From: Pyrodictiaceae archaeon
Lineage (GTDB): Archaea > Thermoproteota > Thermoprotei_A > Sulfolobales > Pyrodictiaceae
Length of the DNA: 64,000 nucleotides
Assembly (NCBI GenBank): GCA_027036135.1
Contig: JALVSY010000007.1
Location: 1,156,880-1,220,879 of the forward strand
Direction of reading: 5' to 3'
Shown here: in pieces, positions 46,855 through 58,323 of the stretch
Numbering within the stretch: position 1 is the first letter of the stretch
Layout: every line of letters begins with the position of its first letter
Notes under the pieces: generated by a model
Told to the model about the DNA's origin: nothing
The model's database searches: none
The model's input: only the letters and a program-made list of their open reading frames with translations
Translations under genes and position numbers: made by a program

Positions 46855-47319
46855 TTGACGCATCTATCCCCGGGCCAAGAGGCACCCGACTTCGAGGCAG
46901 TACTCCATACCGGTGAGAAGATAAGGCTAAGCGATCTACGAGGCAAGATAGTTGTTCTCTACTTCTACCCACGCGCTATGACTAGCGGGTGCACGAGAGA
47001 GGCAATGAGGTTCAACGAGCTACTAGACGAGTTAGAGAAACTAGGAGCCATAGTACTCGGTGCCTCAACGGATCCCGTTGAGAGGAATAAGAGGTTCGCA
47101 GAGAAGCTGGGGCTGCGCTTCAAGCTAATAAGCGACCCAGAGGGCGAGATAGCGAGGCTTTACGGCGTACTCAAAGAAGGTACCAAGAGGCCTAGCGCAC
47201 AGAGAGTAACCTTTGTGATTGACCCAGAGGGTAGAATAGTTGAAGTGATAAAGGTTAGGCCGGCGGAGAAGCACGCCGACAGGGCACTGGAAGTGGTGAA
47301 GAAGCTGACTAGTGCATAA
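46855..47319 (+). CDS. bcp: Peroxiredoxin, BCP/PrxQ family
   Basis: YFYPRAMTSGCTREA, RVTFVID. Confidence 0.93.
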   Translation: MTHLSPGQEAPDFEAVLHTGEKIRLSDLRGKIVVLYFYPRAMTSGCTREAMRFNELLDELEKLGAIVLGASTDPVERNKRFAEKLGLRFKLISDPEGEIARLYGVLKEGTKRPSAQRVTFVIDPEGRIVEVIKVRPAEKHADRALEVVKKLTSA

Positions 47320-48097
47320 TGTATACGAGGGCCTTTGTAGCCGGGATAGTCGCGGCGCGCGCAGCGGCGTCACGGCCAAGCATTATGGTTCCATCGTCTC
47401 GCTCGAGGAGGGGCCTCACACTATTCTTCTCAATGAGTATTGTTAGTTTTTCTCTGCTATCCTGGCAGAATATTGTCGCGCGGACGTTTGGTACCTGGAG
47501 TATCTCTGCTGCTATATCAGCGCACGTGGTCTCGGGCTTATCGAACATTATCCTATCGCCCCTAGCAACGATAGCCATGACTGATAATGGGTTATAGTCC
47601 TCTGATATGTTGCGCAGTGCACGCAGCTTCTCCTCAATAACAGCCGGAGCGGGAGCAGGGGACAAGGTAGGTGCTGGAGCAGCAGGGGAAGTAGCTGATG
47701 CACTCTGTACTGGCGCCTCTAGCGTCGGTGCAAGTAGTTCTATCAAGTCCTTTATCGCCTCCACGCCCTTTGCTAGTAGTGTTGCTGGCTCGGCTCCGAA
47801 GTCCAGGGTAGTCTCCGCCCTGGTAAGCTCAACTATCTCTATGGTTCCTCTTCGCTGGAGCACTCTCCGTGCAAGCTCGGTGATGCACTCCTCGCCCCGG
47901 GCATACCTGCCGCCGAGATCTGCTAGGCAACCAGCCCTACCATCATCAGAGACCTCTAGCATAAAGAGTGAGCCATCTGGTACCCTGTAGACGAGCCTAC
48001 CATTGCCTAGTCTTAGTAGCTCTCGTAGAGCATCTACAAACGATATACGGGACGCCTCGCCGCTCCAGAGCCTACGACCCCTCGAGGGATATACCAA
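47309..48097 (-). CDS. Protein with two PATAN/DUF2226-like domains joined by an Ala/Pro linker
   Basis: Pattern helix, G-x-strand-strand-strand, 'GEECI' helix, 'IEIVELT' strand; repeated after the SPAAPAPTLSPAPAP linker (GRDAA...ALVY). Confidence 0.5.
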   Translation of the reverse strand: MVYPSRGRRLWSGEASRISFVDALRELLRLGNGRLVYRVPDGSLFMLEVSDDGRAGCLADLGGRYARGEECITELARRVLQRRGTIEIVELTRAETTLDFGAEPATLLAKGVEAIKDLIELLAPTLEAPVQSASATSPAAPAPTLSPAPAPAVIEEKLRALRNISEDYNPLSVMAIVARGDRIMFDKPETTCADIAAEILQVPNVRATIFCQDSREKLTILIEKNSVRPLLERDDGTIMLGRDAAARAATIPATKALVYIMH

Positions 48098-48173
48098 GAC
48101 CCCACCCTGCTACTACTTCAATAGTTACTAGGCCAGCTTGGTCTAAAACAGTTTTACCCCCTGACGAGGAAGC

Positions 48174-48956
48174 CTACTTAGACTTAGCAACAGCCAGTGC
48201 ATAGCTAACAGCTATCGGTAGGGCACCAGCAACAGCAGCCTCCCCCATGGGGAACTTGAAGATGGCAGCGGCTAGGAAGTATATCACCGCACCAAGAGTA
48301 GCAGCTCCGAGACCGATACCGAGGGGTAGCCTAGGCGCTTCAGCAGCGACAGCCTTCTCCTGCTCCGGTCTCGGTGCAGCCGCAGCCTCCTTGGCGGCTT
48401 CGGCTTCTACGGGCTCTAGGCGCTCCTCTACTAAGCGGAGCCTAGTGCCACAGTTAGGACAAGTCCTTATCGATAGGTCTGCTCCGCAGAACGGGCAGCT
48501 AGCTACACCAAAAGGCACTCTCCTACCACACCGTGGACAAGTCTGCGTAAAGACCTCTAATAGGGCGCCGCACTTGGGGCACTGGAGTGGCTTGCCCTCA
48601 ACTATTCTCCGTACAGGTGCTAGTAGGGCGCTAATCGCGCCCGGCTCCCCCAGTATGGCGACGGTATAGCCCTCACCTATATCCGCTACGAGGAGTGACT
48701 TATCGCGATGACTAGCAAGTATTACTGATGCTTTGCCAGCAAGAGCCCTACTAGTAACAGTCTCAACATATCCTGCTGAGAGAGATGCAAGCTCCTCCGC
48801 GTATGGCTGCATATCTGGGTTAGGGGCCTCCACGCTATACACCAGGCCCTCGTGTGCACCAACAACTATGTCGACTCCATCGACAGCCGCGGCTAGAGTA
48901 ACAATAGCAGTTAGCTTGTTCTCAGGAGTACTCAGCGGAGCAACCTCCATGCCCAC
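48174..48956 (-). CDS. Roadblock/LC7-like + double zinc ribbon + C-terminal membrane anchor
   Basis: DGVDIVVGAHEGLVYS...ELASLSA Roadblock pattern; CPKCG, CPRCG, CPFCG, CPNCG; two C-terminal TMs. Confidence 0.75.
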   Translation of the reverse strand: MGMEVAPLSTPENKLTAIVTLAAAVDGVDIVVGAHEGLVYSVEAPNPDMQPYAEELASLSAGYVETVTSRALAGKASVILASHRDKSLLVADIGEGYTVAILGEPGAISALLAPVRRIVEGKPLQCPKCGALLEVFTQTCPRCGRRVPFGVASCPFCGADLSIRTCPNCGTRLRLVEERLEPVEAEAAKEAAAAPRPEQEKAVAAEAPRLPLGIGLGAATLGAVIYFLAAAIFKFPMGEAAVAGALPIAVSYALAVAKSK

Positions 48957-49070
48957 TACAAGTCCCTCCCACTACCTATTATCCACGAGGGGTGAAAAGC
49001 CTCACGTTTTCTAAAGAAAGAGAGTTCATTAATACGAGGACGTATCGGAGACCTCTGATAATGTCTAGCC

Positions 49071-50114
49071 CTACCTAATACCTATTACGGAGGGAAGCGA
49101 CACCGATGGTACTCTTCTCTTCTCGGCAACGTCCCTCACGAATACCTGGTACATCCCCTTCACGATGTCCTCGCCTAGGCTGCTCCATATATTGTTGAGT
49201 TCGCGGTACTCATTAGCCTCTAGCATGCCGAGTTCGTGCATAGCCTTGGGGGGCCAGGTGGGCTCGTAGCCGCGCTCCTTCTCGTGCTCCACTACCTCTA
49301 GCCAATAATCCATCGTAGCAGCTGGTAGGCCCTGGAATGGCCCCATACCGGTAAACGTGAACGATACGAGCTGGAACCCGTACCAGACAGGTGTCCACAG
49401 TACCCATGAGAGGTACTCCCTTGGGAGCCTCGATGGTATAAGCGGGAGCGGTAGCTCGCTGGGCTCTGGTGCTTTTAGCTCTATTCCAGCTAGGCTAAGG
49501 GAGTCAACGGGCATGTAGTGAGCGTCACGAGCAGGTATAACTGCTAGGGCATAGTCCTCGCTACCCATTATAGCTGCTGTCTCTATGTCGAACAAGTATA
49601 CCCACTTAGAGCCATCAATGGCCCCGTACGCGGTGTTAGCTGTCGTGACATCAACGTGTACTACGTCGGCTAGGTCTAGGCACGCCAATGCCTTGAGAAC
49701 GTCACGGGCCATAGAGATCCTTGTTGAGAGATTGTTCTCGGCTAGATATGCTCTCAGCTCCTCAAAGCTATTAGCTATATCGGCCAGCGTCCGGAAATCC
49801 TCGATATAGCGGAACACAAGGACAGCGCTATCACGGTAAGCCCCCACGGCCACGGGGAAGCCCCTACTCAGTAGGCTCTGAGGTAAACCTCCACAACGAT
49901 GACGAAGCCTCACTAGGCGGCTAAGCATCTCAGCTACTCTCTCAACTGGCTTAGCGAGCTCCGTCTGTTTCTGAGTAAACACCTTCACAACGTACTTCTT
50001 GCCAATTATCCTGGCCTCGTAGATATCTGCTTCGCCGCCACTATCGATCATCTCCCACTCATCGGTATCAGTCTCTACTACGCCCCTATCGTAGAACACG
50101 AGGCTCAGCTTCAA
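49071..50114 (-). CDS. Ser/Thr protein kinase-like (YegI-type)
   Basis: SGGEADIY, VVKVF, VVHVDVTTAN, LFDIE; GGAGGTG RBS before TTG 50114. Confidence 0.82.
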   Translation of the reverse strand: MKLSLVFYDRGVVETDTDEWEMIDSGGEADIYEARIIGKKYVVKVFTQKQTELAKPVERVAEMLSRLVRLRHRCGGLPQSLLSRGFPVAVGAYRDSAVLVFRYIEDFRTLADIANSFEELRAYLAENNLSTRISMARDVLKALACLDLADVVHVDVTTANTAYGAIDGSKWVYLFDIETAAIMGSEDYALAVIPARDAHYMPVDSLSLAGIELKAPEPSELPLPLIPSRLPREYLSWVLWTPVWYGFQLVSFTFTGMGPFQGLPAATMDYWLEVVEHEKERGYEPTWPPKAMHELGMLEANEYRELNNIWSSLGEDIVKGMYQVFVRDVAEKRRVPSVSLPSVIGIR

Positions 50115-50136
50115 CCCCGCTACACCTCCCTCCTGC

Positions 50137-50928
50137 TCAGTACACAGCTGTCTCGCTAAGTCTCTCAACGAAGCGCCTCACAGCCTCCTCCCACTCCTTG
50201 GTTATCCTATCATTCTGGGGTGCATCGATGAACATCTTCTCGTGGTAAGGCGGGTCAACTATGTTCAGTAATCCTCTCTCTTCGAGTACTTTTCTCTGCG
50301 CGTCCCGGAGAAACGAGGCTATTGCTCTGAGGGTCTCGCGGTCAGCGTCTAGCCCGAGAGCTATTGTTGCAAGCCCTATCCGGTTCCGGGGATTAAGGGC
50401 TTGTAGCTTCTCGCGGAGCTCGTTATTAATCCGGTCAGCCTCCTCTAGTACGTCCTCCGGGGTTCTCTTAGTCTCCTTTCCATCTGTGAAGAGGAAGACT
50501 GTCACGTATTTCTCCGAGGGTAGTTCCTTGTCCTCTATATACTCCTCTATAACTCTGCCAGCAGCCTGGAGAGCATCAGCCATCGCTGTCATTCCATAGG
50601 GTCTGTTCTTATTCAGGCTCTCCCTGAAAGCCTTGAGCGCCGGATTGCTCTCAACTACGGGGAAGTACTTCCTCCCATCCCTCTCCACAATGTATACGTC
50701 GTCACTAAACCATACAAACCCTACGCGGAATACTGGGGCCATGCTGCTCCTACTAAGCCTCTGAGTAAGCTTCTCTACTAGCCCGACTAGGTGCTCCCAT
50801 TTGCCTCGATGATCGTATGTCTTAGGCTCGCTCATACTGAGAGAGCGGTCAAGCACAAAGAGAACTAGCACCGTGTAGCTAAGGGGCCTACGCTTCAAGA
50901 CCCTCAACATGCTCGAGGGAATAGCCAT
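50137..50928 (-). CDS. von Willebrand factor A domain protein (TerY-like)
   Basis: MIDAS DRSLSM, GMTAMADAL, LFTDGKE, IALGLDAD. Confidence 0.9.
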   Translation of the reverse strand: MAIPSSMLRVLKRRPLSYTVLVLFVLDRSLSMSEPKTYDHRGKWEHLVGLVEKLTQRLSRSSMAPVFRVGFVWFSDDVYIVERDGRKYFPVVESNPALKAFRESLNKNRPYGMTAMADALQAAGRVIEEYIEDKELPSEKYVTVFLFTDGKETKRTPEDVLEEADRINNELREKLQALNPRNRIGLATIALGLDADRETLRAIASFLRDAQRKVLEERGLLNIVDPPYHEKMFIDAPQNDRITKEWEEAVRRFVERLSETAVY

Positions 50929-50985
50929 GCTGCACGCCTCCTACATTCCCCTACAAGGAATCTAGGGCTATGCGGGGTCTTCTCG

Positions 50986-51753
50986 CTACTTACCCTCCTC
51001 CTTAGCCTTCTCTATCACCGTTAGCACCGCCAGGCCTCCACCGATACTGGCATAGATTATCGCGGAGTCGCTAACCATTGCTAGCCTCTGCACAGAGCCC
51101 GTTCCAAGGCTTGTTGAGAGCCCGTTAAGCGCTTTGACACCCTCTATGAATAGCTTGGCTAGCTTCTCTGCCTCCTCGTCCGCGACGCCATCAACCGCTA
51201 CCACTTTGTTCTCCTCAAGGTTCAGTGCAAGGCTGCGAATACTAGCGGCCTCTACCTGGCCCGGGCCAGCATGGGCTAGGCTTAGCAACTTCAATAACTC
51301 CACGAAGATGTCTCCAAGTCTCCCGCCAGGTATCCTTGGCTGAAGAGTGGCTGGGAACATACTGATAATAGTGGTGGCGACCCGGTTAACTGCTCTGCCT
51401 AGTGCTTCTCCTCCGTACTGGTCTATGAGCTTGCCCTCGGCCTCAGCCTCCACGTAGACTCTGCAACGAGGGCCACGGGGAAGAGCGGTGATCACTAGCC
51501 TGCCCTTAGCGTCCCCCCTTAGCTCGTAGACGAGGCTATCACCGGAGCGATTCATCCTTACCTCTACTCGGAGCTTGCCCTTGCGCGGAGACGCAAACGT
51601 AAGCACATATGATTCCTTCTTCTCGCCCTTCTCGATAAGCCTACCCATGCTCTCGAAGTAGAAACCTGGCTCACGCCCAGCCAGGGACCTTAGTACCTGG
51701 TCGCAGTCAGCGTGGACATCGAGTACTACTTCTCGCTTAGCCTTCGCCACCAC
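50986..51753 (-). CDS. SRPBCC/CoxG-like N-terminus plus Roadblock-like C-terminus
   Basis: N-terminal strand-rich helix-grip pattern; C-terminal EKLAKLF...LSTSLGTGSVQRLAMVSD...LTVI typical of Roadblock. Confidence 0.55.
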   Translation of the reverse strand: MVAKAKREVVLDVHADCDQVLRSLAGREPGFYFESMGRLIEKGEKKESYVLTFASPRKGKLRVEVRMNRSGDSLVYELRGDAKGRLVITALPRGPRCRVYVEAEAEGKLIDQYGGEALGRAVNRVATTIISMFPATLQPRIPGGRLGDIFVELLKLLSLAHAGPGQVEAASIRSLALNLEENKVVAVDGVADEEAEKLAKLFIEGVKALNGLSTSLGTGSVQRLAMVSDSAIIYASIGGGLAVLTVIEKAKEEGK

Positions 51754-51804
51754 TTGTTCCCCGCGAGGAGGATATAGGGTTATAGGTGACGCTTAAAACA
51801 CGTA

Positions 51805-51860
51805 GGTTTCTGGGCAGACTTTCCCCCTAAGCAAGAACCAAGAGGCCTTGCCCAGAAACC
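51805..51860. repeat. Perfect 12-bp inverted repeat (GGTTTCTGGGCA / TGCCCAGAAACC), 32-bp spacer, in a divergent promoter
   Basis: Read directly at 51805-51816 and 51849-51860. Confidence 0.75.
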
Positions 51861-51867
51861 CTATGGG

Positions 51868-52710
51868 GTGTCAATTGTGCCCTGGATGGCATGGGTAGCT
51901 ACGTACAATACTGTCCACGGAGAGGACGATATAGGTGTATGGGTTAGCCGTGGCGGAGACTACGGCGCAGCAATGGTGGCAGACGGTGTCTCAGCGACGG
52001 GTGGTGGCGGTGCCTCGTTTCTCGCAGTCTCCTCAATGCTCCTTGCCTGTCGCCTACTATTGCCTCGAGGCCTCTCCTTCGCAACCATGCGTGAGTGCCT
52101 AAGCCGCGTAGACTCTATAGCCCGTGAGACGCTCGTAGAGGATGCTGCTGTTGTAGCTGAGATAAAGAAGCGATACTACTCGGATTGCAGCAAGAACGGG
52201 GAGCCTTGTACACGGCCACTAGGAGTAGACGATGTGATAAAGATAGGGTACATAGAGCCAAGCCAGCGGAGAGGGGAAGGGGCGCCATCATCGACGCTGC
52301 TAGCGGCACTCTTCAGCGGCTCGAATATCGGCTTCCTCCTCCTAGGCGATGGCGTGGTAATGTCGACGGGGGCTACTGCTAGGCGGGAAGAGCTATGGGT
52401 GGCTTGGGGCGCGCTTCCCCAGTTCTACCAAGGAGTAAAGGTCATGAGGTACATAGCTCTGGGCGAGGGCGCCCGGGGACACCCAGTGCTCCTACTATCC
52501 GATAGTGAGCCCGGGAGGGTATACGCAGTTGCCACTGACGGGGTTGACCCAGCAGCGCTGGCAGAGGCTTTGAACGCTATAGCTGATCGGTTGGACAGAA
52601 TGGCGGCAGAGGGCACTAATCCCGCAGCAGAGGTACTTAGACAAGTAAGAGCAAAAGTAGGTAGACTAGAGGATGACGCCTCAGTAGCGCTCGTCTATCA
52701 TGCCCGGTGA
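51868..52710 (+). CDS. PP2C-family protein phosphatase (PphC-like)
   Basis: GEDD, VADGVS, SSTL, LGDG, ATDGV, EDDAS motifs. Confidence 0.88.
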   Translation: MSIVPWMAWVATYNTVHGEDDIGVWVSRGGDYGAAMVADGVSATGGGGASFLAVSSMLLACRLLLPRGLSFATMRECLSRVDSIARETLVEDAAVVAEIKKRYYSDCSKNGEPCTRPLGVDDVIKIGYIEPSQRRGEGAPSSTLLAALFSGSNIGFLLLGDGVVMSTGATARREELWVAWGALPQFYQGVKVMRYIALGEGARGHPVLLLSDSEPGRVYAVATDGVDPAALAEALNAIADRLDRMAAEGTNPAAEVLRQVRAKVGRLEDDASVALVYHAR

Positions 52711-52772
52711 TACCGTATGTATTTATGTATCTAGACAAGGGTTTCGTGAGATAAAAACAGGACGTTATAGAA

Positions 52773-53354
52773 CTATATTGTTACAGCGCTTATATCGTAT
52801 ATTGTTACCGAGACACTTCTATCCTTAAGCGCTGCCTCGAGAACACTCTTAGCCTGAGCCGGGCTTAGAGGAGCACCGAGCTTAGCAGCAGCTATTATTG
52901 TCGCCCCTTTTGAGACGAAGAAGTAGTCGCTAGCCCCTATGTGGAACCGTAGGAGCAGTGTACCGGGCCTCTTAACTATCTTTGCTAGCTCTGCTCTATC
53001 AGCCCTGCCGCGATAGAGTATAGGCGCCTTGAGAACCACCTCAACGATACGGGATATGTCTGAGAGCTTCTGTGATAGATCATTGCTGCATTTGTCCTCG
53101 GACACACCGAGTATCTCTTCCTCCCTAGGCTTGAAGGACTCAACAGTACCGCCAGCCTTTATGCGCAGCAATGCCTTACCAAGTCTCTCGACGCTGTATC
53201 CCCTCCTACGGGCCCATATCTCTATGAGCTTCTCTACGGCCTCGTCAACATTGATTACTGCTTCACCCGTCTTTTTCACGAGGTCCTCTATGCTCCAGTA
53301 GGGTATGAAGCCGCCCATACCTCTTAGATCGAGTACACTAGCGTCCCGGGCCAT
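52773..53354 (-). CDS. TusA/SirA-like N-terminal domain plus PATAN/DUF2226-like domain
   Basis: VLDLRG...IP...WARRRGYSV...LRIK fits the TusA fold but has no Cys; C-terminal half ends VSVTIYDI like the 47309 domains. Confidence 0.5.
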   Translation of the reverse strand: MARDASVLDLRGMGGFIPYWSIEDLVKKTGEAVINVDEAVEKLIEIWARRRGYSVERLGKALLRIKAGGTVESFKPREEEILGVSEDKCSNDLSQKLSDISRIVEVVLKAPILYRGRADRAELAKIVKRPGTLLLRFHIGASDYFFVSKGATIIAAAKLGAPLSPAQAKSVLEAALKDRSVSVTIYDISAVTI

Positions 53355-53360
53355 AGCTCG

Positions 53361-54839
53361 TCACCACTTCGAAAGTGCTTGGAGGAGCTTCGATACCTTC
53401 TCTTTTCCTCTTAGGAGCGGGCCGTGTCTCGGAGCAATAGTTGATACGTCGAGGCTAGTGACTCTCTCGAGCCATTCCCGTAGAGCATTCTTGCCAACGC
53501 TGAACTCTAGGTAGCTCTTAACCATCTCTATGTACTCGTCTAGCTCCTCGACATAGATGCTCCAGAGACCAGGCGGGGAGACCGCGCCGAGGGACTCACC
53601 AGCGAAGAGTATTCGTGAGCGCGGGTCATAGAGGCTCAGAGTAGCTACCCCCCTTACCCTTGAGGGTATGATACTGATCTCTCCCCCGCCGAGCCTTATG
53701 GAGCCAGGCCGGGCTGGGAGCAAGTTAACCTGCCCAGGGTTAGGGAGCAGTGGCGCGAGAAGAGAACCCCAGTAGGAGGAAGCATGGAGCGTGGCATGGC
53801 TAGCCTTCTCTACTAGCTCGTTGAGCGTTACGGCCACGTCTGCCTCGGCTGCCGTGACTACTATGTGGCGCACGTTATCCAGGTCCTGGACAATGTTTCG
53901 AAGAGCACGTATGAACCTAGGCCCACCGCTCGGATCCACTACGAGTGCCTCGTAGCCGGAGACAACTATATAGGTATTAGGCATGAGGCCGCCATAGTCG
54001 GGCTTCGCTACGCCGCCGACCCAGTAGACTCGGTGGTTCTCCTCCACGTAGATGGGCTCGGCCTCGAACAAGTACATCTCAGCGGAGCCGGTAAGGCTCC
54101 AAGCCTTAATCCTCACGCGGTGCTCGGGGGGCCTTGCTGCAAGCGTTATTGCTCTCTGTCCCTCGGCTTTCTCCTCGCCGACCTCTGCGTATATCCCGGT
54201 TATCCTGTTTCCCCTAATCACTAGGCGTAATAGGTAGGAGCCACGGTAATCAGTTACCTCTACGAAGTAGTCGTCGGGGCCTAGTAGCGCTATTACGCGT
54301 TGAGCGGCCTCCAGCACGGTGTTCCGGACAGGTGTGAAGCTATCATAGTAGGCTAGCGTAGCCGTGCTCGGCAGTATAGCTGTTAGTGCAGCCAATTTAT
54401 TGTCATCTGGTGTAAGCTCGATTACTGGCGAGGAACTAGCTATTCTTTCTGCCAGCTTCTCGGCCATGTGCCTTACTATGTTATCAACTATCTTTGCGGC
54501 ACCACCCGCGCCGCCACCACTCACAACTATATGAGCCCCCTCACCAGTGTCGATGACATCTATGGCGAGGATTAGTGAGTCAACGCCCCCCTTGGCGACA
54601 AGTATCTCGGTTTCATCTGTCTCGTAGAGCTTGTACTCCAGCCTAGCCCTCCTATGCCCCATGAATCTAGCCAGCCTAGGCACCTTGACTACCATGTAGT
54701 TCGTGCCTATCTCCTCTATCGGCTCAGCGCCCTTCATTAACTCGATGATATTCACTATCTTCCTCACACTCTCCGGGTCAAGCGGCACAATAATCTTTGC
54801 CGCACCCTTCTCGATACTCATTGTTGGCTTAAGGCTCAT
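53361..54839 (-). CDS. Multidomain protein: SRPBCC-like + PATAN/DUF2226-like + degenerate MBL-fold (ODP/FprA-like) domain
   Basis: C-terminal VYWVG, NTYIV, LVVDP, LYDPRSRILFAG, IAPRHGP; metal motif reads TAAEAD. Confidence 0.72.
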   Translation of the reverse strand: MSLKPTMSIEKGAAKIIVPLDPESVRKIVNIIELMKGAEPIEEIGTNYMVVKVPRLARFMGHRRARLEYKLYETDETEILVAKGGVDSLILAIDVIDTGEGAHIVVSGGGAGGAAKIVDNIVRHMAEKLAERIASSSPVIELTPDDNKLAALTAILPSTATLAYYDSFTPVRNTVLEAAQRVIALLGPDDYFVEVTDYRGSYLLRLVIRGNRITGIYAEVGEEKAEGQRAITLAARPPEHRVRIKAWSLTGSAEMYLFEAEPIYVEENHRVYWVGGVAKPDYGGLMPNTYIVVSGYEALVVDPSGGPRFIRALRNIVQDLDNVRHIVVTAAEADVAVTLNELVEKASHATLHASSYWGSLLAPLLPNPGQVNLLPARPGSIRLGGGEISIIPSRVRGVATLSLYDPRSRILFAGESLGAVSPPGLWSIYVEELDEYIEMVKSYLEFSVGKNALREWLERVTSLDVSTIAPRHGPLLRGKEKVSKLLQALSKW

Positions 54840-55051: not shown

Positions 55052-56245
55052 CTACATCCCTGTAGCTGGTATGGGTCCGAGCCCTGTGCTGCCGTGATGC
55101 TGTATTACTACTCCCTCGTCTCTCTTCTCATAGAGCAGCGGGTTCGCTACGGGGTCTCTCACAAGGAATAACGGGGAATCGAGATCAACGTACCGTGTAG
55201 CGCTACTGGTTACTGCTGCGTGGTAGGCCTGGGCTATGCCTAGCCCTGTCTCAGCCATACAGCCCCACATAGCCTCTAGGCCACTGGCCTCCAGTAAAGC
55301 GGCGGCCCTAGCGCCTTGTAACGGGCCACCGATCTTAGCTATCTTTATGTTAACGACGTCGGCAGCCCTTCTCGCAGCGACCCTTGCTACCTCCTCTAGG
55401 CCACGGGCAGACTCGTCAGCCGCCACCGGTGTCTCAACTCTCTCTCTGACAAACGCTAAGTCCTCTAGCCTACCAGCAGGCACTGGTTGCTCAACTAGCT
55501 CGAGGCTATCACCCATCAACTCCTCTAGTCTCCTAACCACGCGCACAGCTTGCTTCGGGCTCCACGCCTGGTTAGCATCAATCCTTATCCTCGCTCGGCC
55601 CTCCGCGGCGTAGTAGACAGTCTCGGCAAGCATTATATCGAGGACTGGGTCACCCGTGCCGAGCTTGACCTTGAGCACGCTGAAGCCATTAATGCTCGGC
55701 AGGGGTATCGGCGGGTTCTCCGGCGCCTTGTCGCGCTTACCCACGAGGTACTCGATGGACTCTATGAACGCGTCCCTGAGAGCACCGCTACCACGCCTTA
55801 TCTCCTCTAGGACATCCTCGCCCGGTATTGAGACCGTGTAATCGGTCACGAGTCTCTCGTGAATAGCGCCGCCAAGAACAGTGTAGGCGGGGACCCCTAG
55901 TAGCTTTGCGACCGCGTCAACTATGGCTGCCTCGAGGCCTGCCCGGGCAGCGCTGAACCCTGGGCCCCCGGAATGGATCACGCGGAGAGCCTTCCCCATG
56001 TCCTCTGGGAGTCTTATCCCGTTGAGGCGGGGTGCAAGCCCCTCCACATAAGCCTTAGCGGCCTCTATGTTCTCACAAGTAACCTTTGGAGCTGGCGCGG
56101 CCTCTCCGAAGCCGATGGTGCCATCACTTAGCTCGACTCCTACAAAGACGCTACGCGTACGCGAGGATGCTGAGTAATGTATCCGAAACACTCCACGAAT
56201 ATCTGCCTCAACAACCCACGCCCTAACCCTGCGGATAACCGGCAA
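55052..56245 (-). CDS. Dipeptide epimerase (L-Ala-D/L-Glu epimerase, enolase superfamily)
   Basis: GFGEAAP, LKVKLG, IDANQ, VEQP, ADES, NIKIAKIGG, GCMAE, DLD. Confidence 0.92.
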   Translation of the reverse strand: MPVIRRVRAWVVEADIRGVFRIHYSASSRTRSVFVGVELSDGTIGFGEAAPAPKVTCENIEAAKAYVEGLAPRLNGIRLPEDMGKALRVIHSGGPGFSAARAGLEAAIVDAVAKLLGVPAYTVLGGAIHERLVTDYTVSIPGEDVLEEIRRGSGALRDAFIESIEYLVGKRDKAPENPPIPLPSINGFSVLKVKLGTGDPVLDIMLAETVYYAAEGRARIRIDANQAWSPKQAVRVVRRLEELMGDSLELVEQPVPAGRLEDLAFVRERVETPVAADESARGLEEVARVAARRAADVVNIKIAKIGGPLQGARAAALLEASGLEAMWGCMAETGLGIAQAYHAAVTSSATRYVDLDSPLFLVRDPVANPLLYEKRDEGVVIQHHGSTGLGPIPATGM

Positions 56246-56410
56246 CGTGCCCGAGCCCTCGCTACTAGGTAATATGCGCCGAGCCAGGCGCGGCCTCACG
56301 TACATAGTGGTCAACACTAGATATAGGAGTGGCGCCAGCCAAGACAAGGAACCAGATACTATCCCGCGCAAGTGATAAGCGGGATGCAGAAGTAGCGGTG
56401 CTAGCGAGTC

Positions 56411-56981
56411 ATGGACGCGCCAAGTAGTATCGATGAGGCAAGGATGATTCTCTACAGTATACTTACCAGGCTCTGCAAGCTCCGCAAAGCAAGTATCATA
56501 GTACTGCCAACGCATAGGGGCTGTAATGCATCGCTGAGGGGCTCCTCTATCCGGCTAGTAATTAGTAGCCTAGAGACAAGAGTCTCCGAGGCATGTCTCA
56601 GCTCACTCATGGAGACAAGCGTCTCGGCGAAGGTAAGGATACTGAACACAGCACTGTCGCTAATCATAGGTGTACTCGGTACACTGATAATAGCTGGCAC
56701 CAAGGCCGGGCTAATAGCGAGTATCGCAGCACTAGTAATCGGGGCGGCGTCGTGGCTTCAGGGGGAGACGGGCCCGGAGAAGAATAGACGAGGTAAACGA
56801 GGCAAGGGAGATAGATGGGATAACATCCAGTCTTTATAATGATGTAGCCGAGCTCCTGGAAGAGATCATCCAGGAAGCCAAGAAAGGGTGCAAGGGGACA
56901 AAGATGCGTATGTTTACGCTACCAAGTAGTTTCCGGAGCCGCTGCGAGCAGTACGCGGCGCGTTACCCCTACCTAGAGTAA
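56411..56981 (+). CDS. Hypothetical membrane protein, probable frameshift near 56770
   Basis: ORF 56411-56839 with 2 TMs; a shifted frame continues IDEVNEAREIDGITSSLYNDVAELLEEII...YPYLE* to 56981. Confidence 0.5.
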
Positions 56982-57051: not shown

Positions 57052-58323
57052 CTAGCTCTTCTTTACACGGTATAGTGGCGCGCCATTAACTATTACTCTC
57101 TCAACAAGCCCCATGTCTACTAATTTCTGGAGCTTCCTCCACGCCGTTGATTTGCTTATTCCCAGTCTGCGCGCTACCTCGCTTACTCCCAGGGGGCCCT
57201 CCTTCGATAAGAGATCGAGAATTGCTTTGTCACGATCATCCAGCCCAGAGGAGACCAGGGTCACCTCGGCGGCTGAGCCAGTACCACCGGGAGATGATCC
57301 GTCTACAAGTGCACTTGATCCCGCTGAACCTGTGCGCCGCCTCCCTAGGAGCAATGCTAGTGCCACTATCACTGCTACCGCGATCACCCCGGCTATGATT
57401 GCTCCGGTCTTGCTGCTCTTCTTTACCGGGGTAGTGGTTGTAGCTATGGGAGTTGTAGACGGAGTTGTAGTTGTTGGCGTTGTTGCGGGTGTTTGCGTCA
57501 TGCTTGTTGTTGTCTTGGCTCGGCTCTGAGTAGTCGTCATTGGTGGTGCCGGCTTCTTTGTGGTCGTTGTCATACTTGTTGTCGTCTTCGTGGCTGTTCT
57601 TGAAGTTGTTGTCTTCGTCGTAGTTGTTGTTCTAGTTGTTGTAGTAGTGGTACTCTTTGTGGCCGTCGTAGTACTCGTTGTTGTCTTGGTAGTTGTGGCC
57701 GCTGTACTGGTTGTTGTCCGAGGTGTTGTCGTTGTAGTTGTTGTGGTTGTTGTTGTAGTAGTAGTTTTGGTCGCTGTTGTGGTCGTCGTTGTTTGGGGCG
57801 GCACAAGGTAGACTATATTATAGGTACCGGGGCTATTGTAGCGCAGAACTATCCTATCCGAGACGTAATCAACTACGGCTGTACCGTTGAAGCCCAGTAA
57901 GGCTGCGCCGCGTGGCAGGTAAACAGTTGCTGGGCCAATGGGGTGTATAGTCGCGTTGACAACGTTGTCAGTGACGTTGCCCACTATTGCACTGTACTCT
58001 ATCCAGACTGTCGTAGAGTTAGCAGCATCTATCACCGCCTCTCCGTTCTTCACAGTGAAGTCTAGCGGCGTACCGTTCTCGTTGTAGACTAGGAGGGTGC
58101 TCGTCAAGGCACCCTTTTCGAGTGGGACTGTGAGCACGAGTATACCGTTAGGATTGTAGGCTTTCACTTTTATGGAGGCGTCGCCGTAGGGGCCTAGGCT
58201 ATAGATACAAGTAGTCGTTGTGGCTGCGAGCGAGACGCTAGCCGATAAGAGGGCTAGCAAAAGAGCCATAGTTGCAGCGCCCGCTATTCCCCTCATGGTC
58301 AAGTATCCCACCTCAGCACCCAT
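57052..58323 (-). CDS. Membrane-anchored transcriptional regulator: signal peptide, beta-rich ectodomain, Thr-rich stalk, TM, C-terminal wHTH
   Basis: LDDRDKAILDLL...SEVARRLGISKSTAWRKLQKLVDMGLV; poly-Thr linker. Confidence 0.88.
   Translation of the reverse strand: MGAEVGYLTMRGIAGAATMALLLALLSASVSLAATTTTCIYSLGPYGDASIKVKAYNPNGILVLTVPLEKGALTSTLLVYNENGTPLDFTVKNGEAVIDAANSTTVWIEYSAIVGNVTDNVVNATIHPIGPATVYLPRGAALLGFNGTAVVDYVSDRIVLRYNSPGTYNIVYLVPPQTTTTTTATKTTTTTTTTTTTTTTPRTTTSTAATTTKTTTSTTTATKSTTTTTTRTTTTTKTTTSRTATKTTTSMTTTTKKPAPPMTTTQSRAKTTTSMTQTPATTPTTTTPSTTPIATTTTPVKKSSKTGAIIAGVIAVAVIVALALLLGRRRTGSAGSSALVDGSSPGGTGSAAEVTLVSSGLDDRDKAILDLLSKEGPLGVSEVARRLGISKSTAWRKLQKLVDMGLVERVIVNGAPLYRVKKS
57420..57795 (-). 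repeat. Low-complexity ACN-codon (poly-Thr) tract
   Basis: GTT/GTC/GTA triplet repeats on the + strand, inside the CDS. Confidence 0.85.

What the first reader, a model, noticed from the sequence alone, without database searches (positions are those of the whole stretch)
47309..54839. Eight-gene signalling cluster: vWA-kinase-PP2C triad embedded among Roadblock, zinc-ribbon, PATAN-like and ODP-like proteins
Seen: contiguous genes for a Ser/Thr kinase, a MIDAS-intact vWA protein and a PP2C phosphatase, flanked by two Roadblock-like proteins (one membrane-anchored with a double zinc ribbon, one with an SRPBCC-like domain) and three proteins with PATAN/DUF2226-like domains. Known: vWA+PP2C+kinase is the TerY-P triad (E. 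coli yegL-pphC-yegI type) linked to stress and phage defence; Roadblock proteins such as MglB regulate small GTPases; Sulfolobus archaellum control uses vWA, zinc-finger/FHA and kinase proteins; crenarchaea largely lack two-component systems. Inference: an undescribed phosphorylation switch coupling small-ligand sensing to a membrane-localised output such as motility, polarity or defence. No GTPase or FHA gene is seen in the cluster.
Basis: partly seen in the sequence, partly recalled or inferred. Interest (0 to 1): 0.82.

Follow-up and report, generated by a model that had tools for sequence, protein, structure and literature searches.

The report
Archaeal kinase-vWA-phosphatase signalling cluster
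Eight neighbouring genes of a deep-sea-vent archaeon (family Pyrodictiaceae) encode a protein kinase, a phosphatase, a metal-site adhesion-type (vWA) protein and five unusual adaptor proteins that stay together in related genera, so they probably form one undescribed signalling machine whose input and output are unknown.

Summary
The eight ORFs exist at the stated coordinates. The only correction is that the kinase probably starts at 50114. All eight recur in order in four Pyrodictiaceae genera, and the probes tested were missing together from two complete relatives.

Confirmed:
- a vWA protein with an invariant MIDAS site
- a PP2C phosphatase
- a Bud32-like kinase core (sub-threshold by every library, but the catalytic motifs are invariant)
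- an SRPBCC+Roadblock fusion (AF2 model; MglB Z 12.1)
- a Roadblock + double zinc ribbon + membrane anchor protein
- an ODP-family domain

Not confirmed:
- "PATAN/DUF2226-like" rests only on a sub-threshold Pfam hit to a paralogue of gene 1, plus weak profile links to gene 8.
- Gene 7 instead has a TusA/SirA-like fold without the active cysteine, followed by a domain with no match.
- The ODP domain has lost most of its metal-ligand motifs.

New: a kinase-free paralogous module (g8'-g7'-g1'-Roadblock) lies elsewhere in the genome.

No PADLOC model matches TerY-P. No FHA or GTPase gene lies nearby. Cluster presence does not track archaellin genes.

Best reading: a lineage-restricted Ser/Thr phospho-switch assembled on a membrane-tethered Roadblock platform. 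It is a new variant of the known vWA-kinase-PP2C modules, and no function has been tested.

The parts
47309..48097 (-). g1, 262 aa. Two alpha/beta domains (about 1-115 and 160-262) joined by a Pro/Ala/Ser-rich linker. A possible divergent DUF2226/PATAN-like protein.
   Evidence: No Pfam hit. The N-domain is homologous to a 240-aa paralogue on contig C30 (hhalign Prob 97.6, E 4e-12). That paralogue hits DUF2226 at 19.7 bits, under the cut-off of 22. ESM neighbours include a DUF2226 cluster at 0.87 and a PatA_N cluster at 0.83, which are leads only. g1N and g1C each link weakly to g8 140-255 (Prob 38 and 34).
48174..48956 (-). g2, 260 aa. An N-terminal Roadblock/LC7-type domain (about 8-118), a double zinc ribbon (four CxxC, 126-169), a linker, and two C-terminal hydrophobic helices (210-258) that form a membrane anchor.
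   Evidence: Pfam Zn_Ribbon_1 and DZR. CxxC pairs invariant. Hydrophobicity. hhalign Prob 99.4, E 5.5e-21, over residues 7-181 to a 237-aa protein whose N-domain passes Pfam Robl_LC7 at 29.9 bits against a cut-off of 23.
49071..50114 (-). g3, 347 aa. A Bud32-like atypical Ser/Thr kinase core (about 1-190) plus a conserved Trp-rich C-terminal extension. The ORF call runs to 50168, but the likely start is the TTG at 50114.
   Evidence: NCBIfam Bud32 models at E 1.5e-5, far under their cut-offs. arch_bud32 on the own genome gives 6.3e-4. TP53RK chains give 0.017. hhalign to the genome's own Bud32 gives Prob 31, E 5e-4, over the catalytic loop. K44, H153xD155xT157T158xN160 and D176xE178 are invariant (numbering of the 347-aa form). 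For the start: a GGAGGTG motif lies upstream, and most of the 23 relatives found are 344-350 aa, with an overall range of 280-350.
50137..50928 (-). g4, 263 aa. A vWA domain with an intact MIDAS site, plus a highly conserved C-terminal helical tail ending in an invariant RLSETA. It is the most conserved gene of the cluster.
   Evidence: Pfam VWA 3e-9. Mean column identity is 81%. D27, S29, S31, T114 and D149 are invariant in 9 of 9.
50986..51753 (-). g5, 255 aa. An SRPBCC/START-like domain (1-137) fused to a Roadblock/LC7 domain (about 144-250).
   Evidence: AF2 model m2a65547ef370 with pLDDT 80.4. Foldseek and VIA matches. A PDB profile hit to the Roadblock domain 3kye at E 0.14.
51754..51867 (.). 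A 114-bp spacer between the divergently transcribed g5 and g6. Presumed to be a shared promoter region (inference).
   Evidence: The g6-g5 gap is 98-179 nt in 5 of 8 loci measured. It is 3.6 kb in two loci and 7.8 kb in one.
51868..52710 (+). g6, 280 aa. A PP2C-type Ser/Thr phosphatase, and the only gene on the + strand.
   Evidence: Pfam PP2C_2 1.8e-6. E19-D20-D21, D39-G40, D161-G162, D224-G225 and D269-D270 are invariant in 7 of 7.
52773..53354 (-). g7, 193 aa. An N-terminal TusA/SirA-like beta-alpha-beta-alpha-beta-beta domain (5-68) without the active-site Cys, a disordered linker, and a C-terminal alpha/beta domain (91-187) with no recognised relative.
   Evidence: AF2 model m498fef2ead8c with pLDDT 77.8. 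VIA gives SirA-like 3hz7 Z 8.2, rmsd 2.1 over 64 residues, 25% identity; Smr 2zqe Z 8.2; TusA 3lvj Z 6.8. The Pfam TusA model does not hit it. Only 22 relatives were found, all orthologues.
53361..54839 (-). g8, 492 aa. An N-domain (1-135; START-like is only a lead), a middle domain (140-255) weakly like the g1 domains, and a C-terminal ODP-family metallo-beta-lactamase-fold domain (about 260-490) with degenerate metal motifs.
   Evidence: Pfam ODP 2.8e-22. ODP chains 6qrq at 2.8e-28. Motif table. ESM lead to the STK_08120-like START family at 0.90. The N-terminal half occurs in only 9 proteins among 1.84 billion representatives.

Best explanation
The eight genes encode one lineage-restricted (Pyrodictiaceae) Ser/Thr phospho-signalling assembly. 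It is a regulatory system rather than a defence system.

SHOWN
- Gene content, domain folds and intact catalytic and MIDAS residues.
- Conserved linkage and co-absence.
- A kinase-free paralogous g8'-g7'-g1'-Roadblock module elsewhere in the genome.

INFERRED
1. The Roadblock domain of membrane-anchored g2 pairs with the Roadblock domain of g5. This forms a membrane-tethered platform of the kind made by MglB or LAMTOR dimers.
2. The SRPBCC pocket of g5, and possibly the N-domain of g8, binds a hydrophobic ligand that supplies the input.
3. g1 and the g8-g7 pair dock on this platform. They form an older sub-module that can exist without the kinase.
4. The Bud32-like kinase g3 adds phosphate to the vWA protein g4 and/or the adaptors, and the PP2C g6 removes it. 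This switches MIDAS-mediated assembly on and off.
5. The ODP-like domain acts as a binding scaffold, not as a diiron O2 sensor.

The output is unknown.
For: LINKAGE
- All eight genes are syntenic in L013, L014, L015, L018, L019 and L020.
- In the rearranged loci the set is still largely kept. G019 holds all eight within about 21 kb. G006 holds seven nearby, with its PP2C about 27 kb away.
- g5-g4-g3 and g8-g7 are adjacent in every locus, with gaps of -58 to 124 nt.
- Flanking genes differ between genera.

CO-ABSENCE
- The vWA, g5, g8N and PP2C probes all fail in G009 and G014, both 99% complete.

CATALYTIC SITES
- They are invariant.

FOLDS
- g5 is SRPBCC + Roadblock.
- g2 is Roadblock + zinc ribbons + membrane anchor.

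ROADBLOCK PAIRING
- Complex prediction with g5 140-255 and g2 8-118 gave weak support: score 0.32, best of 3 controls 0.04.
- The mark was reached by 58 of 80 solved complexes and 2 of 110 mismatched pairs. At 0.60 or under it was reached by only 7 of those 80, and by both mismatches that passed.
- The runs agree in at least 74% of contacts, and the partner's pLDDT is at least 70.
- Roadblock dimers have been solved, so this pass may reflect likeness only.

OLDER SUB-MODULE
- Contig C30 holds g8' (Prob 100), g7' (Prob 99.8) and g1' (Prob 97.6) next to a canonical Roadblock (Robl_LC7 59 bits), with no kinase, vWA or PP2C.

NOT DEFENCE-LIKE
- No PADLOC match at E 0.01 or better except weak hits to kinase models.
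- No tRNA gene in the window.
- GC content equals that of the flanks.
Against: - No phosphorylation, binding or expression data exist. No RNA run holds the locus.
- The kinase assignment is sub-threshold in every library.
- The complex prediction gave only 'weak support', and any two Roadblock domains might score alike.
- The cluster encodes no output domain (DNA-binding, enzymatic effector or GTPase), so 'signalling' is argued from parts, not from a pathway.
- The PP2C is unlinked in one genome (about 27 kb away) and 7.8 kb away in another.
- Presence in 13 of 26 family genomes and in 4 of 11 genera is patchy, as accessory or defence systems also are.
- Two divergent cluster types occur within one genus.
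Confidence: 0.5

Rival explanations
1. A TerY-P-like anti-virus or stress-defence module. The vWA-kinase-PP2C triad senses infection or metal stress and triggers an abortive or restrictive response through the accessory proteins.
For: - The triad composition matches the description of TerY-P, and TerY-P-like modules work as stand-alone defence systems (passages of PMC10542128).
- A zinc ribbon lies in the gene just after the kinase.
- Presence within the family is patchy: 13 of 26 genomes.
- Flanks vary, and unrelated genes are inserted inside the cluster.
- A PIN-domain gene lies between g2 and g1 in two genomes.
- Weak PADLOC hits of the kinase to MkoA (1.5e-4) and PD-T4-6 (2.9e-4).
Against: - The PADLOC TerY model gives only E 0.054, and no other cluster protein hits a defence model.
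- The kinase is not fused to a zinc ribbon or OB fold.
- There is no nuclease, protease, NTPase or pore-forming effector.
- No neighbouring defence genes, integrase or tRNA were found.
- Composition equals that of the flanks.
- vWA identity falls from 98-81% within the genus to about 70% in other genera. This fits vertical descent, although the g8 tree splits one genus.
Confidence: 0.12
2. A redox/O2/NO sensor. The ODP domain of g8 binds a diiron centre as in Treponema denticola ODP and reports oxygen or nitric oxide to the kinase and phosphatase.
For: - Strong ODP family match: 80 bits, and 2.8e-28 to the ODP chains 6qrq.
- A peroxiredoxin gene abuts the cluster in this genus.
- In two genomes of genus g11 (G023, G018; loci L018 and L020), a heme-copper oxidase (COX1 family), a di-heme cytochrome c and a MarR-like regulator are inserted between g6 and g5.
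Against: - In the window's protein, the stretch aligned to ODP's THQDPDV reads TAAEADV.
- The His of that motif is present in only 4 of 16 family members.
- The AHFLHS stretch is SRVRG or similar in most members.
- The last His is Tyr in 9 of 16, and His in 5 of 16.
- Which ODP residues bind iron is recalled from the flavodiiron motif, not read. The ODP structure paper is not held.
- The peroxiredoxin flank is not kept in other genera.
Confidence: 0.12
3. An Arn-like regulator of archaellum or pilus expression, analogous to the Sulfolobus ArnA/ArnB-ArnC/D-PP2A network.
For: - A vWA protein, a zinc-ribbon protein and a kinase are neighbours, as with ArnB (vWA), ArnA (FHA with a zinc-finger part; the zinc finger is recalled) and the Arn kinases (abstracts of PMC6509490, and search listing).
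Against: - No FHA domain occurs in the cluster or its flanks.
- The vWA profile finds no solved vWA chain at E 0.01 or better, although an ArnB paralogue has been solved.
- g4 is 263 aa and lacks the beta-sandwich and helix bundle described for vWA2.
- The vWA protein finds no match in 16 genomes of the 12 other families of the order.
- The own genome has no archaellin match.
- Archaellin occurs in 4 of 8 high-quality genomes with the cluster against 2 of 4 without it.
Confidence: 0.06
4. The genes are unrelated neighbours kept together by shared ancestry alone.
For: - All genomes compared belong to one family.
- Unrelated genes can be inserted inside the cluster.
- The PP2C can move away.
Against: - Flanks change while the block stays together.
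- g8-g7 and g1+Roadblock recur together in a second, diverged copy at 22-35% identity.
- The four probes tested are lost together.
- Very short or overlapping spacers suggest co-transcription.
Confidence: 0.03

Closest known systems
TerY-P triad (TerY-like vWA + PP2C + Ser/Thr kinase), as described in passages of PMC10542128. The original paper, Anantharaman et al. 2012, was not read.
   Same: The three enzyme and adaptor types are encoded together. They are predicted to act as a phosphorylation-dependent switch around a MIDAS-bearing vWA protein. A zinc ribbon lies close to the kinase.
   Different: - The vWA is not TerY-like by the PADLOC model (E 0.054).
- The kinase is Bud32-like and unfused. 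The zinc ribbons sit on a separate Roadblock membrane protein.
- There are no ter genes and no restriction or defence partners.
- Five further proteins are conserved with the triad.
Sulfolobus ArnA-ArnB module with the ArnC/ArnD kinases and PP2A (abstract of PMC6509490; listing)
   Same: A crenarchaeal vWA protein whose interactions are controlled by Ser/Thr phosphorylation. A zinc-binding partner protein is also present.
   Different: - No FHA domain.
- The phosphatase is PP2C, not PP2A.
- g4 lacks the extra ArnB/vWA2 domains.
- No sequence relation was detected.
- Presence does not track archaellin genes.
MglA-MglB(-PATAN) polarity modules and the Streptomyces conservon (passages of PMC4316618)
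   Same: Roadblock/LC7 proteins are encoded beside PATAN-type proteins. In the conservon they lie beside a kinase, in a membrane-associated heterocomplex. The g5 Roadblock domain superposes on MglB (Z 12.1).
   Different: - No small GTPase is encoded in the cluster or in the 20 kb scanned on each side.
- The kinase is a Ser/Thr kinase, not a histidine kinase.
- The Roadblock domains are fused to SRPBCC or to zinc ribbons plus a membrane anchor.
- PATAN membership is unproven.
Ragulator/LAMTOR (MP1-p14 and relatives). Role recalled; the structures appear among the matches.
   Same: Hetero-pairing of Roadblock domains held at a membrane by an anchor subunit, serving as a kinase scaffold. This is the working model proposed for g2+g5+g3.
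   Different: That system is eukaryotic and GTPase-centred. Here the anchor and the Roadblock domain are in one polypeptide. Pairing has only weak in-silico support.
PYR/PYL/RCAR - PP2C - SnRK2 abscisic acid module (search listing of 10.1101/251975; PYL chains among the fold matches)
   Same: An SRPBCC/START ligand receptor, a PP2C and a Ser/Thr kinase act together.
   Different: The resemblance is of fold and parts list only. PYL3 scores Z 9.0, no better than many other SRPBCC chains. No interaction was tested.
Oxygen-binding diiron protein ODP of Treponema denticola (PDB 6qrq/6qnm; passages of PMC7666581)
   Same: The same Pfam family and fold across the whole domain.
   Different: Here the domain is fused behind two extra domains. 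The metal-ligand motifs are degenerate and variable. No chemotaxis genes are present.
Deinococcus radiodurans DRA0331-DRA0334 operon: vWA, STPK, FHA, PP2C (start of abstract only, bioRxiv 10.64898/2026.01.23.701218)
   Same: A vWA, a Ser/Thr kinase and a PP2C in one operon, forming a signalling module.
   Different: That operon is bacterial and has an FHA protein. It has no Roadblock, SRPBCC or ODP-like partner. No sequence comparison was made here.

Membership tests
TerY-P triad | TerY-like vWA protein | tested here: not met
   The PADLOC TerY model gives E 0.054, 11 bits, covering residues 111-168 only. The generic Pfam VWA model does match.
TerY-P triad | Ser/Thr kinase fused at its C-terminus to a zinc ribbon (or OB fold) | tested here: not met
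   g3 has no zinc-ribbon or OB hit. The zinc ribbons are in the next gene, g2.
TerY-P triad | PP2C-like phosphatase encoded alongside | tested here: met
   PP2C_2 28.1 bits against a cut-off of 24. Acidic motifs are invariant.
vWA domain with functional MIDAS | DxSxS, Thr and Asp metal-site residues (motif recalled) | tested here: met
   D27, S29, S31, T114 and D149 are invariant in 9 of 9.
Eukaryotic-like protein kinase, Bud32/RIO-like | Family profile score over the curated cut-off | tested here: not met
   - Best NCBIfam Bud32 model: 24.9 bits against a cut-off of 372.
- TIGR03724: 20.3 bits against a cut-off of 125.
- No Pfam kinase family in 0 of 7 orthologues.
Eukaryotic-like protein kinase, Bud32/RIO-like | Catalytic Lys, HxDxxxxN loop and metal-binding Asp (motifs recalled) | tested here: met
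   K44, H153-D155-N160 and D176 are invariant in 7 of 7. The loop aligns to the genome's own Bud32 HGDLTTSN...DFG (hhalign E 5e-4).
Roadblock/LC7 (g5 C-domain) | alpha-beta-beta-alpha-beta-beta-beta fold superposable on MglB/LC7 | tested here: met
   VIA: MglB Z 12.1, Odinarchaeota Roadblock Z 11.6. The Pfam Robl_LC7 model itself does not hit it.
Roadblock/LC7 (g2 N-domain) | Homology to proteins passing Pfam Robl_LC7 | tested here: met
   hhalign Prob 99.4 over residues 7-181 to the L058 protein. Its residues 20-101 score 29.9 bits against a cut-off of 23. Direct comparison to a canonical Roadblock is weak (E 0.0026, Prob 11). No fold was predicted for g2.
SRPBCC/START (g5 N-domain) | Helix-grip fold with a long C-terminal helix | tested here: met
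   Foldseek: 2ns9 at 2.8e-7. VIA: Z 9.9-10.4 to Rv2186c, TTHA0849 and STK_08120. No Pfam hit. Ligand binding was not tested.
PATAN / DUF4388 / DUF2226 | Pfam profile match over the gathering score | tested here: not met
   - g1, g7 and g8: no hit at E up to 1.
- Neither model hits the window in the own-genome search at E up to 10.
- Only the C30 paralogue of g1 hits: 19.7 bits against a cut-off of 22 for DUF2226, and E 0.058 for DUF4388.
PATAN / DUF4388 / DUF2226 | Fold comparison with a bona fide member | not testable with these tools
I know of no solved PATAN structure to compare with (recalled).
ODP (oxygen-binding diiron protein) | Family profile match | tested here: met
   Pfam ODP 80 bits against a cut-off of 27.2. 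6qrq at 2.8e-28.
ODP (oxygen-binding diiron protein) | Conserved His/carboxylate diiron ligands (positions recalled from the flavodiiron motif and mapped through the alignment) | tested here: not met
   - First His present in 4 of 16 members.
- Second His region replaced in 14 of 16.
- Last His present in 5 of 16.
TusA/SirA-like sulfur carrier (g7 N-domain) | Fold | tested here: met
   VIA: 3hz7 Z 8.2, rmsd 2.1 over 64 residues. It ties with the Smr domain at Z 8.2, so the fold class is shared with several families.
TusA/SirA-like sulfur carrier (g7 N-domain) | Pfam TusA match and the Cys of the CPxP motif (motif recalled) | tested here: not met
   The TusA model does not hit g7 at E up to 10. 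The corresponding stretch is GxFxPY, with no Cys in any of 9 orthologues.
Arn (ArnA-ArnB) module | FHA-domain partner of the vWA protein | tested here: not met
   No FHA hit in the 8 cluster proteins or the 22 flanking ORFs.

The most novel reading that the evidence does not exclude
A GTPase-independent Roadblock signalling machine in Archaea. The SRPBCC-Roadblock protein g5 acts as a lipid or hydrophobic-ligand receptor. It docks on the membrane-anchored Roadblock g2, much like a Ragulator. When ligand binds, it gates the PP2C against the Bud32-like kinase, in the way plant PYL receptors gate PP2C against SnRK2. The vWA protein reads out the phosphorylation state. The degenerate ODP/TusA-like pair g8-g7 and the PATAN-like g1 would be an older Roadblock-binding module onto which the phospho-switch was grafted.
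Probability: 0.15. Interest if true: 0.85.

Novelty: new variant of a known kind. Interest (0 to 1): 0.62.

Why it matters
Crenarchaea largely lack two-component systems. How they couple signals to Ser/Thr phosphorylation is known in detail almost only for the Sulfolobus Arn network.

This cluster offers a compact, self-contained candidate pathway in hyperthermophilic vent archaea. It holds a kinase, a phosphatase, a MIDAS adaptor and a membrane anchor.

It also places Roadblock domains, usually discussed as regulators of small GTPases, beside a kinase and phosphatase with no GTPase in sight. It contains several domain fusions that are rare or absent in the collections searched:
- SRPBCC-Roadblock
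- Roadblock-zinc ribbon-membrane anchor
- a three-domain protein ending in a degenerate ODP domain

The proteins are small and thermostable, so the proposed interactions and phosphotransfer steps can be tested directly in vitro.

Tried and rejected
PROFILE AND HOMOLOGY SEARCHES THAT FOUND NOTHING
- Pfam DUF2226, DUF4388, Robl_LC7 and TusA models run over the whole own genome at E up to 10: none hits a cluster gene.
- Whole-length profile comparisons g1/g7, g7/g8 and g1/g8: nothing significant (E 0.5, 0.26, 0.042).
- g7 C-domain: no link to any other cluster domain. Only a TLDc match at Z 5.1 in the fold search, whose rows were filled by the N-domain, so this part is barely tested.
- Word-based homologue search with the g1 N-domain profile (66-210 aa candidates): none.
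- The same tool returned only orthologues for g7 (22) and the kinase (23).
- The vWA profile against solved chains: 0 at E 0.01 or better.

LEADS THAT DID NOT HOLD
- A tblastn hit of g2 at C7:111026-111409 proved to be zinc-ribbon similarity in a 270-aa protein without a Roadblock part.
- One marginal g8N hit outside the family (G371, E 3.7e-4) is a ParA-like protein with a C-terminal tail. Not pursued.
- A 234-aa neighbour of the genus-g6 Roadblock-zinc-ribbon gene compared with g8N: E 0.052, collinear but not significant.

SCANS THAT DO NOT APPLY OR GAVE NO INFORMATION
- The sigma-70 promoter and terminator scan gave no more sites than shuffles (7 against 4.9, sd 2.3 and 2.1), and it does not apply to archaeal promoters.
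- Expression: no RNA holder listed among 11 runs.
- The ODP structure paper is not held.

LITERATURE
- von Willebrand + PP2C + Roadblock + archaea: 0 papers.
- DUF2226: 0 papers.
- PATAN + Roadblock + archaea: 5 papers, none on such a cluster.
- Hyperthermus butylicus / protein kinase / PP2C: none of the 8 listed papers mentions the organism.
- Supplementary tables of PMC4316618 (gene neighbourhoods of MglA/MglB) could not be seen. They might list related archaeal contexts.

Full report
WHAT IS THERE

The region 47309-54839 holds eight long ORFs, seven on the minus strand and one on the plus strand. I label them g1 to g8:

| Gene | Coordinates | Size | Note |
|---|---|---|---|
| g1 | 47309-48097 | 262 aa | |
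| g2 | 48174-48956 | 260 aa | |
| g3 | 49071-50168 | 365 aa | ORF as listed; see kinase start below |
| g4 | 50137-50928 | 263 aa | |
| g5 | 50986-51753 | 255 aa | |
| g6 | 51868-52710 | 280 aa | plus strand |
| g7 | 52773-53354 | 193 aa | |
| g8 | 53361-54839 | 492 aa | |

Base composition (54-55% GC) matches the flanks. The window contains no tRNA gene.

THE TRIAD

- **g4 is a vWA protein.** It matches Pfam VWA at 37.8 bits against a cut-off of 23.8, and VWA_2. The MIDAS positions D27, S29, S31, T114 and D149 are invariant in 9 of 9 orthologues. With 81% mean column identity it is the best-conserved gene. It ends in an invariant RLSETA tail.
- **g6 is a PP2C phosphatase.** It matches PP2C_2 at 28.1 bits against a cut-off of 24. 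Its acidic motifs are invariant.
- **g3 is less secure as a kinase.**
  - No Pfam kinase family matches it or any of 7 orthologues.
  - NCBIfam Bud32 models score far below their cut-offs (E 1.5e-5).
  - The arch_bud32 model finds it only as the fifth-best match in its own genome (6.3e-4).
  - Solved TP53RK/Bud32 chains match at E 0.017.
  - On the other side, the Lys, the HxDxTTxN loop and the DxE are invariant. The loop also aligns to the genome's own Bud32 (hhalign Prob 31, E 5e-4).
  - I therefore read it as a divergent Bud32-like kinase with a conserved 150-residue Trp-rich extension.
- **Kinase start.** The start is probably the TTG at 50114. It lies 22 nt after the vWA stop and behind a GGAGGTG motif. 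Most of the 23 relatives found are 344-350 aa, out of a range of 280-350.

THE ROADBLOCK PROTEINS

- **g5** gave an AF2 model with pLDDT 80.
  - Residues 1-137 form an SRPBCC/START fold. Foldseek gives 2ns9 at 2.8e-7. VIA gives Z 9.9-10.4 to Rv2186c, TTHA0849 and myristate-bound STK_08120.
  - Residues 144-250 form a Roadblock fold: MglB Z 12.1, rmsd 3.0 over 84 residues, and an Odinarchaeota Roadblock at Z 11.6.
- **g2** carries four invariant CxxC pairs and two C-terminal hydrophobic helices. It is the only membrane segment in the cluster.
  - Its N-domain matches a canonical Roadblock only weakly (E 0.0026).
  - However, genomes of a sister genus that lack the cluster encode 237-250-aa proteins of identical architecture. 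Their N-domain passes Pfam Robl_LC7 (26.6-31.4 bits against a cut-off of 23). g2 aligns to one of them over residues 7-181 with Prob 99.4.
- Both Roadblock claims therefore hold.

THE 'PATAN/DUF2226-LIKE' PROTEINS

- No cluster protein hits DUF2226 or DUF4388.
- The lead comes from a paralogue of g1 on contig C30. g1 aligns to it with Prob 97.6. That paralogue scores 19.7 bits against DUF2226, under the cut-off of 22, and E 0.058 against DUF4388.
- It is the only one of 10 g1-type N-domains to hit either model.
- ESM feature neighbours of g1 include a DUF2226 cluster (0.87) and a PatA_N cluster (0.83). Both are below the tool's own reliability mark.
- Domain-wise hhalign links g1N and g1C to g8 140-255 (Prob 38 and 34). 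It links g7 to none of them.
- **g7** instead folds (pLDDT 78) into two parts:
  - An N-terminal TusA/SirA-like sandwich: 3hz7 Z 8.2 at 25% identity, tied with an Smr domain. It has no active-site Cys and no Pfam TusA match.
  - A C-terminal alpha/beta domain without a recognised relative.

g8 AND ODP

- The C-terminal 230 residues are a clear ODP-family domain.
- The stretches aligned to ODP's His/carboxylate motifs are degenerate and variable across 16 family members.
- I recalled the ligand positions from the flavodiiron motif. The ODP structure paper is not held.
- The N-terminal half is very rare. It occurs in 9 proteins among 1.84 billion representatives, of which the seven near full length (450-502 aa) carry it in front of an ODP-sized C-terminal part, and two are short pieces of 83 and 204 aa. 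It occurs in 5 of 401 genomes sampled across the phylum.
- An ESM lead suggests its first domain is START-like.

CONSERVATION

- The vWA protein finds matches in 12 of 41 relatives. All are in the window's own family, and none are in the 16 genomes of 12 sister families.
- Record titles and protein names returned by the tools place the family as Pyrodictiaceae (Pyrodictium, Hyperthermus, Pyrofollis).
- All eight genes lie in the same order in six further genomes. Two more carry a rearranged version:
  - G019 has all eight within about 21 kb.
  - G006 has seven together, with the PP2C about 27 kb away.
- g8-g7 and g5-g4-g3 are adjacent everywhere, with spacers from -58 to 124 nt.
- Flanking genes differ between genera.
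- Unrelated genes have been inserted inside the block:
  - A heme-copper oxidase, a cytochrome c and a regulator in two genomes of genus g11.
  - A secreted beta-propeller protein and a PIN gene in two genomes of genus g3.
- g5 occurs in 13 of 26 family genomes and in 4 of 11 genera.
- Two 99%-complete genomes lack the vWA, g5, g8N and PP2C probes together.
- Several loci are the same contigs as genomes already counted (equal contig lengths and coordinates). They are not independent evidence.

A SECOND, KINASE-FREE COPY

Contig C30 of the same genome holds the following, followed by hydrogenase genes:

- g8' (35% identity, Prob 100)
- g7' (29% identity, Prob 99.8)
- a conserved 210-aa unknown gene
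- g1'
- a canonical 119-aa Roadblock (Robl_LC7, 59 bits)

It has no kinase, vWA or PP2C. The g8-g7/g1/Roadblock set is therefore a module in its own right. In the window it is joined to the triad.

WHAT IT IS NOT

- PADLOC finds no TerY-P or any other defence system.
- No FHA or GTPase gene is found among the 22 flanking ORFs scanned.
- The own genome has no archaellin match.
- Among the 12 high-quality family genomes, archaellin is present in 4 of 8 with the cluster and in 2 of 4 without it.

PAIRING TEST

I tested g5 140-255 against g2 8-118 with complex prediction.

- Result: weak support. The score was 0.32, and the best of 3 controls was 0.04.
- The mark was reached by 58 of 80 solved complexes and 2 of 110 mismatches.
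- At 0.60 or under it was reached by only 7 of those 80, and by both mismatches that passed.
- The runs agree in at least 74% of contacts, and the partner's pLDDT is at least 70.
- Roadblock dimers have been solved, so this shows likeness more than specificity.

MECHANISM

Shown:

- The parts, their intact sites and their linkage.

Inferred:

- g2 and g5 form a membrane-tethered Roadblock pair.
- The SRPBCC pocket provides a hydrophobic-ligand input.
- g1 and g8-g7 dock as an older sub-module.
- The kinase g3 and the PP2C g6 add and remove phosphate on g4 and/or the adaptors, changing MIDAS-dependent assembly.
- The ODP-like domain is a scaffold.
- The output is unknown.

COMPARISON AND NOVELTY

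- The triad resembles three known systems:
  - TerY-P (passages of PMC10542128)
  - the Arn module (abstract of PMC6509490)
  - a Deinococcus vWA-STPK-FHA-PP2C operon (listing only)
- It fails the defining features of the first two.
- The Roadblock/PATAN context recalls MglB modules and the conservon (passages of PMC4316618), but no GTPase is present.
- My literature searches found no description of such a cluster.
- I rate it a new variant of a known kind. It is of real interest for archaeal signalling, but its function is untested.

Noticed in passing
L030 (= G000 contig C30:40000-54000) 3296-7293: A paralogous, kinase-free module in the same genome. It holds a g8-like gene (504 aa), a g7-like gene (206 aa), a 210-aa unknown, a g1-like gene (240 aa; sub-threshold DUF2226 hit) and a canonical Roadblock (119 aa). 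Two unknown genes and hydrogenase subunits follow.
   Followed up: yes
L014 4369-4941, L015 4418-4963, L028 5199-5750, L037 2213-2749, L038 3872-4411; L030 5439-6071: A 190-250-aa protein without any Pfam match. It is 76-81% identical between genera, far more conserved than g1. It lies tail-to-tail next to g1 in five loci. In the window's genome it sits only beside the g1 paralogue on C30. It may be a ninth member of the system.
   Followed up: partly
L057 1081-1797, L058 1444-2157, L059 1090-1842: Genomes of a sister genus that lack the cluster encode Roadblock + double zinc ribbon + membrane-anchor proteins of the g2 type. Beside them lie a 160-190-aa unknown and a small C2H2-like zinc-finger protein. 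In L059 a 234-aa protein nearby is faintly collinear with the N-half of g8 (E 0.052).
   Followed up: partly
L018 3870-7159 and L020 5673-8964: In two genomes of one genus (G023, G018), a heme-copper oxidase subunit I homologue (COX1 family, 544 aa), a di-heme cytochrome c (322 aa) and a MarR-like regulator (163 aa) are inserted between the PP2C gene and g5.
   Followed up: partly
L016 5100-6956, L017 9539-11458; L037 746-1183, L038 5428-5865: In the rearranged cluster type, a secreted 618-639-aa beta-propeller protein with a Thr-rich stalk and membrane anchor lies between g7 and g5. A PIN-domain gene lies between g2 and g1.
   Followed up: partly
tree; L015 versus L016/L017: Two genomes assigned to one genus carry a strongly diverged, rearranged cluster (g8 about 40% identical to the window's). 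A third genome of that genus carries the standard arrangement (54%). This suggests replacement or accelerated evolution within the family.
   Followed up: no
window 57052-58323 (-): A 423-aa protein with a signal or anchor segment, an extremely Thr-rich low-complexity stalk, a membrane helix and a C-terminal winged-helix DNA-binding domain (HTH_24, 4.5e-12). The N-terminal part (residues 34-174) is 70% identical in the genus mate L013. An odd membrane-tethered regulator.
   Followed up: no
L021 6432-7133 (-): A close relative's contig carries an extra stand-alone ODP-like gene (28% identical to the g8 C-domain) between the peroxiredoxin and the next gene. The window has no such gene at that place.
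   Followed up: no
window 46855-47319 (+) and 55052-56515 (-): The cluster is bracketed in this genus by a peroxiredoxin (AhpC/TSA, 1.7e-38) and an enolase-superfamily (MR_MLE) enzyme. These flanks are not kept in other genera.
   Followed up: yes
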